NCBI RefSeq assembly: GCF_035084215.1
Contig: NC_090364.1
Coordinates: forward strand, 12,462,001-12,526,000
Source: Heptranchias perlo
Lineage: Eukaryota
Length of the DNA stretch: 64,000 bases
Direction: 5' to 3'
The notes under the pieces were generated by a model. It had not been told where the DNA came from. It saw nothing but the letters and a program-made list of their open reading frames with translations, and searched no databases. Position numbers and translations under genes: made by a program. Positions 5,439 through 54,858 of this stretch are shown one piece after another. The first letter of the stretch is position 1; each line of letters starts with the position of its first letter.

Positions 5439-5467
5439 ATGGAGCTAGGACAGAGGCGCACCTTAAG
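5439..5467 (+). CDS. B7-like gene exon 1 (start, MELGQRRTLR)
   Basis: ATG followed by a strong donor AG|GTAAGA. Phase 2 matches the exon at 20117. A tiny first coding exon is typical of ICOSL/CD86. Immune-type motifs lie upstream. Confidence 0.6.
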
Positions 5468-8400
5468 GTAAGAAGATATTCAAATCGGAGCCTTCTCTGA
5501 TAAAGTTATTACGGTGAGTGCTGGCCACGCCACTCCCCGGGAACTTTAGGTTTCTGGGGTGTTTTACACAAGGCCATTCTGTAAGTTTTTAAGGCCATTG
5601 TAAAACTGAGAGTAAAAATAGTGAGAGGAAACATTTCAAAGTTACAGAATGTTCCATTTTTAATTTCAGGCGTTCGCCTCTCCTCACGCGGTGATACCGT
5701 TTCACCAACTTTGGTTACCTACCATTGCTTTATCTAAGTGCCTATTCATGCTGCTGAGTCTAGACGTGTGTGCTAGTAGGCCCTTCTACAATGGGGAGTA
5801 TCACACCGAGGCCCGAAGCTGCTCCCACCTAATGTCCTCACATGAACACCTTCCATCAGTTGTAACTGGATAGTGAACCCTGTCTGATTATTCCCTTCCT
5901 TTGCTCAATGATCCTGGAGCCAGTTATATTGCCCATGACTGTCCCAGATAACTGGGCATAGATCTAGGGCTATGTCCTTCTTGATCTGTGTGGCTCAGTT
6001 GCAGTCCATTTACTAGATGGCCTTCAGAAGGCTCTTCCTTTTCACTCTTTTCATGAACTAGCATTTAAGTTTTGTTAATATACTCTGTGCTTCCCATTTT
6101 CATTTCCAACCGTAAATCAGCTGGTCCCACTTTCAGGGAAGCCAACGAATCCTTTGCTCAGGGCTACCAGGTGCCGATTGGGAAACACAGTCTGGATGCA
6201 GAGGGTGTGAGGATGTGGCTGTGTTGTGCTCAGTTAATTTCACCTACTTGTAAACCTGTGGTCCCATCAGTGTTGTATTACTCTTTATTGAGGGTTCTCA
6301 GATCTTTTATCAAAATGCCCTGTGTGGTTTTAAATGCATGTTCACAAGCTAATCACAGCCAAAGTTAACAACAAAGTCAATGTATTATGATTGTAATACT
6401 GTTTTGCTAAATAATAGAAACATAGAAAAATTTACATCACAGAAGGAGGCCATTCAGCCTGTCGTGTCTGTGCTGGTCGAAAAAGAGCTAACCAGCCTAA
6501 TCTCACTTTCCAGCACTTGGTCTGTAGCCCTGTAGGTTACAGCACTTCCAGTGCATATCCAGGTACTTTTTAAACGAGTTGAGGGTTTCTGTCTCTACCA
6601 CCCTCTCAGGTAGTGTGTTCCAGACCCCCACCACACTCTGGGTGAAAATGTTTTTCCTCAGCTCCCCTCTAATCCTTCTACCAATTACTTTAAATCTATG
6701 ACCCCTGGTTATTGACCTCTCTGGTAATAAATCAGCGAGTTTGATAAGTAGTTTTATATGTGCTTCATTGAAAATTCTGGAAATGCTCAATCGGTCCATC
6801 AGCATCTCTAAAGAGAAACAAGTAAATGTTTCAGGTAGAGTCATAAGAAATAGGAACAGGAGTAGGCCATACGGCCCTCGAGCCTGCTCTGCCATTAAGA
6901 TCATGGCTGATCTTTGACCTCAACTCCACTTTCCCGTCTGGTCCCCATATCCCTTGACCCTTCAAAAGAGCCAGAGGTGAGATGAGGAATAATTTTTTAA
7001 CACAGCGAGTTATTGAAAATTGTTTCCGGTGGCAGAAGGGTTGGTAACCAGTGTACACAGATTTAAGATGATTGGCAAAAGAACCAGAGGTGATATGAGG
7101 AGACATTTTTTTATGCAGCGAGTTGTTATGATCTGGAACGCACTGCCTGAAAGGGCGGTGGAAACAGATTCAATGGTAATTTACAAAAGGGAATTGGATA
7201 AATACTTGAAAGGGAAAAAAAATACAGGGCTATGGGGAAAGAGCAGGAGAGTGGGACTAATTGGATAGCTCTTTCAAAGAGGTGGCACAGACACGATGGG
7301 CCAAATGGCCTCCTACTGTGCTATACCATTCTATGATACCTTTATAATCTGGAATGCACTGCCTGAAAGGGTGATGGAAACAGATTAAATAGTAACTTTC
7401 AAAAGGGAATTGGATAAATACTTGAAGGGAAGAGAATTGCAGGGCTATGGGGAAAGAGCAGGGGAGTGGGACTCATTGGGTAGCTCTTTCAGTGAGCTGA
7501 CACAGGCATGATGGGCCGAACAGCCTCCTTCAGTGCCATAAGATTCTGTGATTCTATGACCAGAACTGAAAGTAAAGCAAGCTCTTTAATAAAACTGAAC
7601 AAGACAAGTGGGAAGTGAGATAATGGTTGCAAGTTCAAATGAGTTTTGTAGAAAAGGTAGGAAGAGGTGAACAGTGGTGGGTACTCTACGAAAATCATTG
7701 CAGTAAGGCACGGAACGACACTGAAAGAACAAAAGGCCATGACCATAGCTAACGAAGAAAACTGCAGATGCTGGACCCCTGAAATAGAAACGAACCATGC
7801 TGGGAACGTGCAGCATGTCGCCACCGGAAAAAAGAAGACGGGCCAATGCCAGACCAAGACCCCCCCCCCTCTCCAACCAGTGCTGTTCTGTGATAACTGG
7901 TCCTTCCCCAGATGCTGATGGAATTGCTGTGCATCCCCCACACCCCCTGACACTGAGGATGGGAGAGAAAGATGAGTTCTGAATGCAACTCCTCTGGGGA
8001 GGGGTCTGCACTCGGTGTGGGCTAGCCTTTCCTCGTTTCAGGTACAGACATGGTTGCTATGTGTTCCTGGTGAAGTTTGCTTTCATTTTAAGGTTCCAGC
8101 ATCTGAAGTTTCCTCATTAGCTATAATCATTGTGTTTTTTTAAAATGTCTTTTCATGTCTTTGGGGCATAATATCAATTAACATCTTCCCCCATCAATAA
8201 TATCTACCCCCCCACATCAATAATATCTCTCCCCTGCATCAATAAATATCGTCCCTCACCCACCCTGCCTTTCCTTCCCCTTTTTTACATAGAATTACAG
8301 AGAATGTACAGCACAGGGATAGGCTATTCGGCCCAACTGATCCATGCAGGTGTTTATGCTCCATACGAGCCTCCTCCTACTCCTCTTCATTCAGCCCTAT

Positions 8401-53300: not shown

Positions 53301-54858
53301 GGTGAGGCGAGAGTGACTGCCCTTGACATCAAGGTAGCATTTGACCAAGTGTGGCACCAAGGAGCCCTAGTGAAATTGAAGTCAATGAAAATCAGGGGGA
53401 AACTCTCCAGTGGCTGGAGTCATACCTAGCGCAAAGGAAGATGGCAGTGATTGTTGGAGGCCAATCATCTCAGCCCCAGGACATTGCTGCAGGAGTTCCT
53501 CAGGGCAGTGTCCAAGGCCCAACCATCTTCAGCTGCTTCATCAATGACCTTCCCTCCATCATAAGGTCAGAAATGGGGATGTTCGCTGATGATTGCACAG
53601 TGTTCAGTTCCATTCGCAACCCCTCAGATAATGAAGCAGTCCGTGCCCGCATGCAGCAAGACCTGGACAACATCCAGGCTTGGGCTCATAAGTGGCAAGT
53701 AACATTTGCGCCAGACAAGTGCCAGGCAATGACCGTCTCCAACAAGAGAGAGTCTAACCACCTCCTCTTGACATTCAACGGCATTACAATGGCCGAATCC
53801 CCCACCATCAATATCCTGGAGGTCACCATTGACCAGAAACTTAACTGGACCAGCCATATAAATACTGTGGCTACAAGAGCAGGTCAGAGGCTGGGTATTC
53901 TGCAGCGAGTGACTCACCTCCTGACTCCCCAAAGCCTTTCCACCATCTACAAGGCACAAGTCAGGAGTGTGATGGAATTCTCTCCACTTGCCTGGATGAG
54001 TGCAGCTCCAACAACACTCGAGAAGCTTGACACCAACAAGGACAAAGCAGCCCGCTTGATTGGCACCCCATCCACCACCCTAAAAATTCACTTCCTTCAC
54101 CACTGGCGCACTGTGGCTGCAGTGTGTACCATCTACAGGATGCACTGCAGCAACTCGCCAAGGCTTCTTCGACAGCACCTCCCAAACCCGCGACCTCTAT
54201 CACCTAGAAGGACAAGAGCAGCAGGCACCTGGGAACAACACCACCTGCACGTTCCCCTCCAAGTCACACACCATCCCGACTTGGAAATATATCGCCGTTC
54301 CTTCATCGTCGCTGGGTCAAAATCCTGGAACTCCCTTCCTAACAGCACTGTGGGAGAACCGTCACCACACGGACTGCAGCGGCTCAAGAAGGCGGCTCAC
54401 CACCACCTTCTCAAGGGCAATTAGGGATGGGTAATAAATGCCGGCCTCGCCAGCGACACCCACATCCCATGAACGAATAAAAAAAAGAAATGCAAGTTAG
54501 TTCTTTCCTTCCTTCTTTTTCTTTCTATCTATCTCATTAGATTTGACGAAAGAACTGAGATTGTAGAATATATTAGGATTTCCAAACGGTAATAGCAGAT
54601 TTCTATCTTAAAAAATAATTTAAAATTATTATATTTATAGTTAAACCGACTTTTTATTTCCTCCGTTGCTATTTTGTTCAGTGATATATCGAAAATGATT
54701 ACAGTCTCATTTAAGTATGTTTTGCAGCAATGGGATCATATCTGCTGCTAATGTAAATTTATAAAAAGGTTGAAATTATTGCTACTATAATGAATGGGAC
54801 ACAGATTTTAAAAAAACTCACAGCTCTGCAGGACAAGAAACGCCAGCAAACGCCGCAT
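41227..54858 (-). CDS. Single-domain germline-joined VJ-type IgSF inhibitory receptor (NITR/APAR-like architecture). Exons 54858-54822, 52905-52543, 46970-46803, 42693-42632, 41343-41227; 248 aa
   Basis: Five GT-AG exons, phases 1,1,1,0, total 747 nt with no internal stop. They encode leader MRRLLAFLVLQSYVQC, V-J domain, Cys-rich stalk, TM YFIALAAVSLLLLLAAMIYAM, and a tail with IHYASV and MVYAEV. AATAAA on the minus strand at 40971-40966. Confidence 0.88.
42632..42693 (-). CDS. VJ receptor cytoplasmic exon 1 (GRALALTGDQVSQSEGATCRQ)
   Basis: Long pyrimidine tract ending catcag, strong donor CAG|gtaagg. Phase 1 in and 0 out, exactly bridging the TM and ITIM exons. Confidence 0.8.
42770..43122 (-). 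mobile_element. CR1 3' fragment
   Basis: LRGLDRVDAERLFPLAGESRTRGHSLRIRG..WNSLPQRAV. Confidence 0.9.
43222..43263 (-). ncRNA. Minimal hammerhead ribozyme motif in a Penelope pLTR
   Basis: Minus strand CAGUU-CUGAUGA-aAGGUCaucGACCU-GAAA-CGUU-AAUU. Confidence 0.65.
43738..46518 (-). mobile_element. Non-autonomous PIF/Harbinger element carrying only the Myb/SANT gene (CR1 fragment nested at about 43880-44240)
   Basis: TIRs GGGGGGAATTTTAACCC (43738) and GGGTTAAAATCGCCCCC (46502-46518), GC-rich subterminal regions, no DDE nuclease. Confidence 0.8.
44275..46207 (-). CDS. Harbinger Myb/SANT-like DNA-binding protein, intact 3-exon ORF (46207-45968, 45589-45430, 45299-44275; 474 aa)
   Basis: RFSDTSLEVLVAAV..W.EVAEEV..RTWIQCRKRFNDL (Myb/SANT). 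GT-AG introns of phase 0 and 1, no internal stop. Confidence 0.8.
46803..46970 (-). CDS. VJ receptor stalk + transmembrane exon
   Basis: Acceptor gggtttcag, donor G|gtgcgt, 168 nt. GAGPSEDCRGAPSPASSIPCPVCSLPSSQSGYFIALAAVSLLLLLAAMIYAMQLKK. Confidence 0.85.
47745..48175 (-). mobile_element. tRNA-derived Deu-domain SINE
   Basis: Same family head, core and tail. Confidence 0.8.
49760..52450 (-). mobile_element. Old CR1 fragments (49760-50790; 51230-52450)
   Basis: LQLDL..L..WADRWQMRFNVEKCKVLH; SRSRGHCLRL. Heavily degraded. Confidence 0.75.
52543..52905 (-). CDS. VJ receptor V-J exon
   Basis: IQSP..V..GDTVTLTC..YWLRQ..GRAP..LTIERV..SDAGHYFCA..FGNGTKLILT. Acceptor ttccctccag, donor G|gtaaat, 363 nt. 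Confidence 0.95.
53060..54486 (+). mobile_element. 5'-truncated non-LTR retrotransposon (CR1/L2 group, distinct from the canonical CR1 copies) in the leader intron of the VJ receptor
   Basis: QFGF, ALDIK.AFD.VWH, GVPQGSV.GP, FADD, then 3'UTR and poly-A. Inserted into a SINE tail. Its 3' end recurs at about 43480-43640. Confidence 0.92.
54822..54858 (-). CDS. VJ receptor leader exon (MRRLLAFLVLQS)
   Basis: ATG in a good context (gccaaacATG), hydrophobic core, donor T|gtgagt, phase 1. Joins the V exon to give ..SYVQC, a split leader as in Ig/TCR V genes. Confidence 0.85.

What the first reader, a model, noticed from the sequence alone, without database searches (positions are those of the whole stretch)
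5439..54858. B7-family ligand and V-type inhibitory receptor arranged tail-to-tail: candidate linked checkpoint pair
Seen: the only two host genes I can reconstruct here are a B7 V+C ligand (+) and the single-VJ ITIM receptor (-). They converge, with stops as close as about 1.5 kb (39762 vs 41227) if terminal exon B is used. Established: B7 ligands are bound by single-IgV receptors, several with a GNGT G-strand (CTLA-4, NKp30), and linked receptor-ligand genes are known in immune clusters. Inference: this may be a physically linked receptor-ligand module or a relic of an ancestral IgSF cluster. Adjacency alone does not show binding.
Basis: inference. Interest (0 to 1): 0.78.

Follow-up and report, generated by a model that had tools for sequence, protein, structure and literature searches.

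The report
Shark NITR-like brake receptor beside B7
In this shark a B7-family immune ligand gene lies tail-to-tail with a single-domain receptor gene that carries inhibitory motifs, with a second such receptor gene just beyond; the receptor likely belongs with the NITR 'brake' receptors so far reported only from ray-finned fish, while binding between the two neighbours is untested.

Summary
The two genes are real, spliced and convergent, but the 1.5 kb gap is wrong. RNA joints and orthologues support B7 last exon A, so the stops lie 6.5–9.2 kb apart. The picture is also not a pair: a second VJ-ITIM receptor sits head-to-head 23 kb beyond the first V exon, making a three-gene immune island between a WBP2NL-like gene and SEPTIN3. 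The B7 is a single-copy ICOSL/B7-H3-type gene; the true B7-H3 orthologue is on another contig. The receptor lacks the CD28-family PPP motif and folds like an antigen-receptor/CD8 V domain. Its closest non-shark relatives are NITR-type proteins of bichir, gar, tarpon and eel, matching in V domain, J motif and two-tyrosine tail; a V-domain tree joins them at 98/95. Orthology is not proven: no I domain, reverse searches rank it 1st, 1st, 6th, 8th, and an Ig-light-chain grouping is not rejected. Both orthologues share one chromosome in one other shark; adjacency elsewhere could not be tested. Most likely: a dimeric NITR-like inhibitory receptor next to a B7 that serves CD28-family receptors elsewhere. 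A linked ligand–receptor pair remains possible (about 0.12).

The parts
5439..5467 (+). B7 gene exon 1 (ATG, leader part 1)
   Evidence: exon chain reproduces the first 240 aa of NCBI model P0006
20117..20175 (+). B7 gene exon 2 (leader part 2)
25712..26056 (+). B7 IgV exon
   Evidence: Pfam V-set 6.2e-14; RNA joint to C exon
28974..29273 (+). B7 IgC exon (C2-set, CD80/butyrophilin-like)
   Evidence: Pfam C2-set_3 2.2e-8; RNA joint
30162..30314 (+). B7 stalk and transmembrane exon
   Evidence: matches orthologues at E 1e-11 to 3e-8; no RNA piece listed over it
31994..32056 (+). B7 cytoplasmic exon with in-frame TGA at 32053-32055 (315-aa protein)
   Evidence: horn-shark orthologue P0014 ends at the same place; RNA joint to exon A
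34693..34908 (+). B7 last exon A (3' UTR, or a 12-residue tail ending at 34733 if the cytoplasmic exon is skipped); right end is that of the RNA contig, not of the exon
   Evidence: RNA contig 34691-34908 without differences; orthologue match E 5.5e-7
39711..39762 (+).
   Evidence: stop present but no protein match and no joint among the rows shown
41227..41343 (-). Receptor last exon: ITIM IHYASV, distal tyrosine motif MVYAEV, stop
   Evidence: covered by RNA contigs in 3 of 3 runs
42632..42693 (-). Receptor 62-nt cytoplasmic exon
   Evidence: fits the 60-nt unplaced part of RNA contig X2 record 11
44317..46207 (-). Harbinger/PIF-type Myb/SANT gene in receptor intron 3, spliced onto the receptor's last exons
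   Evidence: Pfam Myb_DNA-bind_5 9e-10; one 1,981-nt contig holds its exons and the receptor's last exon; frame
46803..46970 (-). Receptor Pro/Ser-rich stalk with three Cys, and uncharged transmembrane segment
   Evidence: RNA piece 46801-46957 in 1 of 3 runs
52543..52905 (-). Receptor single-exon V-J domain (FGNGTKL), no RSS heptamer nearby
   Evidence: Pfam V-set 9.2e-14; RSS scan empty; RNA pieces in 3 of 3 runs
54822..54858 (-). Receptor leader exon (ATG)

Best explanation
The window holds two genes of a three-gene immune island: a single-copy B7-family ligand, and a non-rearranging VJ receptor with an ITIM tail that likely works as an NITR-like inhibitory receptor rather than as this B7's partner. 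Shown: exon structures, splicing of the B7, the second VJ-ITIM gene, the conserved tail in rays, the antigen-receptor-type V fold. Inferred: the receptor forms a disulphide-linked dimer through its stalk cysteines and V-V face, with itself or with the neighbouring VJ receptor; ligand binding leads to phosphorylation of the two tyrosines and recruitment of SHP-1/SHP-2, damping lymphocyte activation (established ITIM biology, recalled). Inferred: the B7 most likely engages CD28/CTLA4/ICOS-type receptors encoded elsewhere, and the adjacency is a remnant of an old IgSF cluster kept in sharks.
For: Profile search of 1.84 billion proteins: of 148 non-shark hits among the best 150, 80 carry a six-cysteine I-type domain by a strict pattern and 106 by a looser one. 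Best single V domains come from reedfish/bichir, alligator gar, eel and tarpon, including a V-only protein with the same architecture (P0171). 44 NITR-type proteins show the same tail plan, ITIM then terminal tyrosine motif, spacing 21-33 against 21 here. V-domain tree with shark TCR and IgL rows: shark receptor plus 13 NITR-type V domains on one side at 98/95. Two NITR-type queries find this gene as best hit in the 3.2-Gb genome. Fold closest to CD8 alpha and TCR V (Z 18.0, rmsd 1.7, 114 aligned). W-x-x-Q, Pro and FGxG of the V-V face are kept in 4 of 4 orthologues and in the second gene; all four stalks have Cys. CDR3 has no PPP, the CD28-family motif (PMC11599192). The B7 is nearest B7-H3 (112.7 bits) and ICOSL (104.2), then CD80 (78).
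Against: No I domain in the receptor, nor another Ig exon in 464 kb beyond the three genes. Two less similar NITR-type queries rank it only 6th of 29 and 8th of 20. Best NITR-type V score (59.9 bits) ties with the best single antibody light-chain V (59.7). AU test does not reject a receptor+IgL clade (p 0.165); the first tree gave only 91/88. NITR rows were chosen by the receptor's own search, which biases tree and reverse tests, and multi-domain proteins are favoured in that ranking. None of 10 looked-up clusters is named NITR by its source. No shared synteny with described NITR clusters. The TM-to-tail splice was not among the RNA rows shown.
Confidence: 0.52

Rival explanations
1. One reading: the B7 is the ligand of the adjacent VJ-ITIM receptor (or of a dimer of the two VJ receptors), a physically linked checkpoint module working like PD-1/PD-L1 or NKp30/B7-H6.
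For: Direct neighbours, tail-to-tail. Both orthologues lie on one 81,969,703-base contig in Mustelus. Bowfin NITRs are intermingled with a CD276-like gene (bioRxiv 2021.06.11.448072). The other B7-like V exons found in this genome lie on contigs that gave no hit in the VJ searches (best candidates only). NKp30, a VJ receptor, binds a B7 (recalled).
Against: The close-stop argument is wrong. No PPP motif; V-V pairing residues kept. GNGT is common in NITR-type domains. Sharks have a CD28/CTLA4-type three-gene cluster elsewhere. The bowfin block is marked by RUNX1/DONSON, and the three RUNX genes here lie on C5, C11 and C29, not C43. Of 10 other shark species with the B7 orthologue, a receptor orthologue was retrieved in 1 (word-limited search).
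Confidence: 0.12
2. The two head-to-head VJ-ITIM genes are a PRARP- or CD8-like pair, or an independent germline-joined offshoot of Ig/TCR V genes, forming a heterodimeric inhibitory co-receptor; the NITR likeness is convergence of generic V and ITIM features.
For: Two single-VJ genes with ITIMs and matching exon plan. Fold search puts CD8 alpha first, tied with TCR V. NCBI names 3 of 4 orthologues CD8-beta-like. The second gene's V scores 51.9 bits with a NITR-type V and 51.1 with a shark TCR-type V segment and falls outside the NITR side of the tree. Chicken PRARP1/2 are a dimerising VJ pair with ITIM/ITSM tails (recalled; paper not held).
Against: PRARP is said to be MHC-associated (PMC10751288) and to carry C1 outside birds (recalled); this island has no C1 exon for either receptor and lies in a SEPTIN3/CENPM block. 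CD8 has no ITIM pair (recalled). The two V domains share only 30 of 103 aligned residues, and a clade of the two is borderline rejected (p 0.049).
Confidence: 0.26
3. The full-length inhibitory receptor is a minor or decaying product in this species; the ITIM exon now serves mainly as the 3' end of the intronic Harbinger Myb transcript.
For: The only listed contigs that join anything to the last exon come from the transposon exons (2 of 3 runs). The Mustelus model lacks the ITIM tail.
Against: Open frame through all five exons, equal to the NCBI model; tail conserved with two rays; V exon covered in 3 of 3 runs; 110 joints were not shown.
Confidence: 0.06

Closest known systems
Novel immune-type receptors (NITR) of ray-finned fish, inhibitory V-only forms
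   Same: Single-exon V-J domain, uncharged TM, ITIM plus terminal tyrosine motif; closest sequences in the searches; V-only NITRs are described.
   Different: No six-cysteine I domain; two genes rather than a large cluster; different flanking genes; NITRs reported as not found in cartilaginous fish.
CD28/CTLA-4/ICOS/PD-1/CD28H family
   Same: Single V domain, GxG in the G strand, ITIM-type tail as in PD-1 and CD28HL3.
   Different: No PPP in CDR3; full FGxGTxL J motif, which CD28 members generally lack; flanking genes differ from those given for CD28HL1 and CD28HL3.
PRARP (chicken) and CD8 alpha/beta
   Same: Adjacent pair of non-rearranging VJ genes, Cys-bearing stalk, V-V face; CD8 alpha is the top fold match.
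   Different: No C1 domain; not in an MHC-type block; CD8 lacks ITIMs. PRARP details recalled, paper not held.
ICOSL (B7-H2) and B7-H3 (CD276)
   Same: V + C2-set ectodomain, TM, short tail; two best solved relatives.
   Different: The B7-H3 orthologue is on C41 (V 97.8 bits against 46.5 for the window gene on the same chain). Location in a SEPTIN3/CENPM block, unlike human ICOSLG at 21q22 (recalled).
Linked receptor-ligand genes (CD7/SECTM1, CD200/CD200R, CD2/CD58; recalled)
   Same: Neighbouring IgSF genes of ligand-like and receptor-like build.
   Different: In those cases binding was shown by experiment; here only adjacency is known.

Membership tests
NITR | V domain with germline J-like motif in one exon, no rearrangement | tested here: met
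   One 363-nt exon ending FGNGTKLILT; no RSS heptamer
NITR | Membrane-proximal I domain with six conserved cysteines (the diagnostic feature; V-only members exist) | tested here: not met
   No second Ig exon in the gene or in 464 kb; I pattern absent in 4 of 4 orthologues; feature
NITR | ITIM plus itim tail in inhibitory forms | tested here: met
   IHYASV and MVYAEV, spacing 21, against 21-33 in 44 NITR-type proteins
NITR | V domain groups with NITR V domains | tested here: inconclusive
   98/95, 91/88; IgL grouping not rejected, p 0.165; rows biased
NITR | Multigene cluster in described synteny (MAP4K2/MEN1, FGFRL1, or RUNX1/DONSON) | tested here: not met
   Two VJ genes between a GRAM-domain gene and SEPTIN3; RUNX genes on other contigs; MEN1 and FGFRL1 not searched
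CD28 family | PPP or PxP motif in CDR3 | tested here: not met
   CDR3 reads AGWRYGMLT; no Pro in 4 of 4 orthologues
CD28 family | Fold closest to CD28/CTLA-4/PD-1 | tested here: inconclusive
   Top rows are CD8, TCR and antibody V within 3 Z units
CD28 family | Binds a B7 ligand | not testable with these tools
PRARP | Pair of VJ genes with ITIM/ITSM tails (recalled) | tested here: met
PRARP | V-C1 ectodomain outside birds (recalled); MHC-type location | tested here: not met
   No C exon for either receptor; location statement; no PRARP sequence was available for direct comparison
CD8 beta (NCBI label) | Short tail without ITIM, tandem with CD8 alpha bearing an Lck motif (recalled) | tested here: not met
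   Both genes have ITIMs and are head-to-head
B7 family | IgV + IgC ectodomain, TM, short tail, nearest to B7 members | tested here: met
B7 family | Orthology to B7-H3 | tested here: not met
   A much closer locus lies on C41
B7 family | Orthology to ICOSL or CD80/86 | tested here: inconclusive
   ICOSL 104.2 bits, CD80 78, CD86 58.5; no tree with named rows was possible

The most novel reading that the evidence does not exclude
This island is the cartilaginous-fish root of the NITR family: a V-only NITR-type inhibitory receptor older than bony fish, kept beside the B7-family protein that is its ligand. NITRs would then read a B7-type self marker, as NKp30 reads B7-H6, and the CD276-like gene among bowfin NITRs would be the trace of the same partnership. 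The first half alone (NITR lineage in sharks and rays) has about 0.4 probability.
Probability: 0.08. Interest if true: 0.85.

Novelty: new variant of a known kind. Interest (0 to 1): 0.52.

Why it matters
NITRs are candidate fish NK receptors and candidate relatives of the VJ gene that RAG split. The holostean NITR study states that no homologue was found in cartilaginous fish and leaves their origin open; the medaka study states that their ligands were unknown (2008). A single-copy NITR-like receptor conserved across sharks and rays would move the family back to the origin of jawed vertebrates. Being low-copy and next to one B7 gene, it also offers a small, concrete binding test. If the link fails, the locus is still an undescribed pair of VJ inhibitory receptors mislabelled CD8-beta-like.

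Tried and rejected
Complex prediction of the B7 ectodomain with the receptor V domain: tool not available, nothing was folded, so there is no computed evidence on binding either way. Single-sequence fold of the V domain failed (pLDDT 35); the alignment-based model (pLDDT 79) used a NITR-rich alignment. CD28, CTLA-4, PD-1, NKp30 and NITR chains were not among the 50 rows listed; this does not exclude them. A PDB sequence search with a salmon NITR-type protein listed only antibody and TCR chains at E 1e-12, so it did not confirm the NITR label. No holder on record as RNA was listed; the three runs are one sample. No RNA piece was listed over the B7 TM exon. BAFF-receptor family search beside CENPM: no match. 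Leader exon of the second VJ gene: two weak candidates, unresolved. Neighbour genes: only 266 of 3,176 non-repeat ORFs were scanned by Pfam, chosen by composition; the ranking put the B7 C exon at 1,395, so small genes can have been missed. Rejected: exon B as B7 end; CD8-beta and B7-H3 labels; an assembly error as cause of the one-base offset in exon A against orthologues (RNA contig agrees with the genome). Literature: no paper describing this locus came up in searches; four key papers (Flajnik 2012, Ohta and Flajnik 2015, Fu 2019, Ohta 2019) were not held, so prior description cannot be excluded. Earlier findings near this place, by sequence and by words: nothing.
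Full report
Setting. The window is G000:C43:12462001-12526000. Its two proteins match NCBI models named from the sevengill shark Heptranchias perlo at 99% and 98% identity on a contig of the same length as C43.

Observation. The B7 gene has exons 5439-5467, 20117-20175, V 25712-26056, C 28974-29273, TM 30162-30314 and a cytoplasmic exon 31994-32056 with TGA at 32053-32055, giving 315 aa. Contigs from three runs of one sample, guessed by the tool to be RNA, join V to C in 2 of 3 runs and the cytoplasmic exon to exon A (34693) in 1 of 3. 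Exon A matches a horn-shark isoform (E 5.5e-7) and exon B matches none of the fetched proteins. The stops are therefore 9,172 bp apart, or 6,494 bp if the cytoplasmic exon is skipped, not 1.5 kb. The receptor has five exons, 54858-54822, 52905-52543, 46970-46803, 42693-42632 and 41343-41227, whose translation equals the 248-aa NCBI model. Its ITIM and distal tyrosine motif are kept in two rays but not in the Mustelus model. The V exon and last exon are covered in 3 of 3 runs; the splice from TM exon to tail was not among the rows shown, and 110 joints were hidden.

Surroundings. A second single-exon VJ gene starts 23 kb beyond the receptor's V exon, head-to-head. It has V (12537667-12538005), TM, a 65-nt exon and a last exon with the ITIM VLYSTL, open throughout; its leader is unresolved. 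No further Ig exon was found in 464 kb. Pfam and PDB place, in order, a BAFF-like TNF gene, a Tim10/DDP gene, a GRAM-domain exon, then B7, receptor, second receptor, SEPTIN3 and CENP-M. Human CENPM, SEPT3, WBP2NL, NAGA and TNFRSF13C are listed together on chromosome 22 (PMC5545733, one table row seen). That the GRAM exon is WBP2NL-like and that SEPT3 and WBP2NL are direct neighbours in human is recalled. The three immune genes thus form an island in a block that lacks them in human.

The B7. It is single-copy; the next loci are 38% identical or less. Its profile scores 112.7 bits with two-domain B7-H3, 104.2 with ICOSL, 78 with CD80, about 60 with PD-L1 and 58.5 with CD86. A locus on C41 is far closer to B7-H3 (97.8 against 46.5 bits on chain 9lme_A), so the window gene is a separate ICOSL/B7-H3-type lineage. 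Orthologues were retrieved from 10 other shark species and no ray.

The receptor. Orthologues came from one other shark and two rays. CDR3 lacks the PPP motif that marks CD28 members, and CD28 members generally lack the full J consensus it has (PMC11599192, passages and Discussion). The same paper reports a three-gene CD28/CTLA4-type cluster in sharks elsewhere. The model (pLDDT 79, V domain mostly above 90) is closest to CD8 alpha, TCR and antibody V domains. The V-V face residues W-x-x-Q, Pro and FGxG are kept in 4 of 4 orthologues, while the aromatic before the second Cys is Leu in rays; every stalk has Cys. This points to a dimer built like CD8 or an antigen receptor (inference).

NITR likeness. 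Of 148 non-shark proteins in the best 150 of a 1.84-billion search, 80 carry a six-cysteine I-type domain by a strict pattern and 106 by a looser one; six cysteines define the NITR I domain (bioRxiv 2021.06.11.448072, passages and section 17). The best V domains are from reedfish, bichir, gar, eel and tarpon; none of the 10 clusters looked up is named NITR, so the label is mine, from the motif. 44 such proteins share the two-tyrosine tail plan. A 30-row V tree with shark TCR and IgL rows puts the three shark and ray receptor rows with all 13 NITR-type V domains at 98/95; a 62-row tree gave 91/88. Against: no I domain; reverse searches rank the gene 1st, 1st, 6th and 8th; best NITR-type and antibody V scores tie near 60 bits; a receptor+IgL clade is not rejected (p 0.165); rows were selected by the receptor itself; the second gene is unplaced. 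The Atlas gave 'CD8 beta chain-like' (0.97, possibly its own cluster) for the receptor and 'putative immune-type receptor 7' (0.94, tied with TCR V) for the second gene. I file it as NITR-like, not as an NITR.

Is it a ligand-receptor pair? For: adjacency; both orthologues on one 81,969,703-base contig in Mustelus, distance unknown; bowfin NITRs intermingled with a CD276-like gene. Against: the distance argument fails; GNGT is generic; the receptor is not CD28-type; the bowfin block is RUNX1/DONSON-linked while RUNX genes here are on C5, C11 and C29. I put a linked pair at about 0.12.

Mechanism committed to. A likely disulphide-linked VJ dimer whose two tyrosines, once phosphorylated, recruit SHP phosphatases and damp lymphocyte activation, next to a B7 that most likely serves CD28-family receptors. 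Gene anatomy is shown; dimer, signalling and ligand choice are inferred.

Novelty. The holostean study says NITR homologues were not found in cartilaginous fish; a 2019 review expects more NITRs as genomes improve (PMC6795676, passages); the medaka study says ligands were unknown (PMC2442602, passages). Passages of PMC12227049, PMC10751288, PMC13262535 and PMC9245511 did not mention this locus. Ten searches found no description, but four key papers were not held and no supplement was opened. Verdict: a real, apparently undescribed three-gene island; new variant of the non-rearranging VJ inhibitory receptors; interest 0.52.

Noticed in passing
window 44317-46207 (-), joined to 42693-42632 and 41343-40908: A Harbinger-type Myb/SANT gene in receptor intron 3 is transcribed and spliced onto the receptor's last exons. 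It gives a 466-aa frame stopping 44 nt before the last junction, so the ITIM exon doubles as its 3' UTR.
   Followed up: partly
G000:C43:12537667-12553400 (L012-L013): Second VJ-ITIM receptor gene, head-to-head with the first, single ITIM VLYSTL after a repetitive Gln/Arg/Pro-rich tail; V only 30 of 103 identical to the first.
   Followed up: yes
window 39751-40858: Transcribed piece between the two genes in 3 of 3 runs, strand unknown; two runs end at a T-run at about 39970, as internal priming of a minus-strand 3' UTR would give.
   Followed up: partly
window 34693-34761: Exon A is offset by one base against orthologues: the KRSHIQDGQG and SVETPLLTEG parts lie in different frames; the RNA contig agrees with the genome.
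   Followed up: partly
L048:8666-9820 (-), G000:C43 about 12.291 Mb: BAFF-like TNF-family gene (177 bits to BAFF, 72 to APRIL) in one 385-aa open frame holding a TM-like stretch and the TNF domain, so possibly intronless; human BAFF receptor lies in the same block.
   Followed up: partly
window about 63050-63590: Array translating as RVRV, LGLG and NPNP repeats, as a degenerate TTAGGG telomere-like tract would, between the two head-to-head receptor genes.
   Followed up: no
window 13916-14371 (-): Harbinger DDE transposase fragment in B7 intron 1 (Pfam DDE_Tnp_4, 4.2e-12).
   Followed up: no
window about 1130-1630: Minisatellite open in several frames (GDQFGDGATEWGPIW-type repeats).
   Followed up: no
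L052, G000:C240:352718-353050 (-): A germline-joined V-J exon (ends FGNGIHLLIP) on the contig that carries many TCR-type V segments.
   Followed up: no
L083, G000:C41:21185750-21186049 (-): Likely true B7-H3 orthologue; further B7 or butyrophilin-like V exons on C1, C11, C27, C29, C35, C38, C42, C45.
   Followed up: partly
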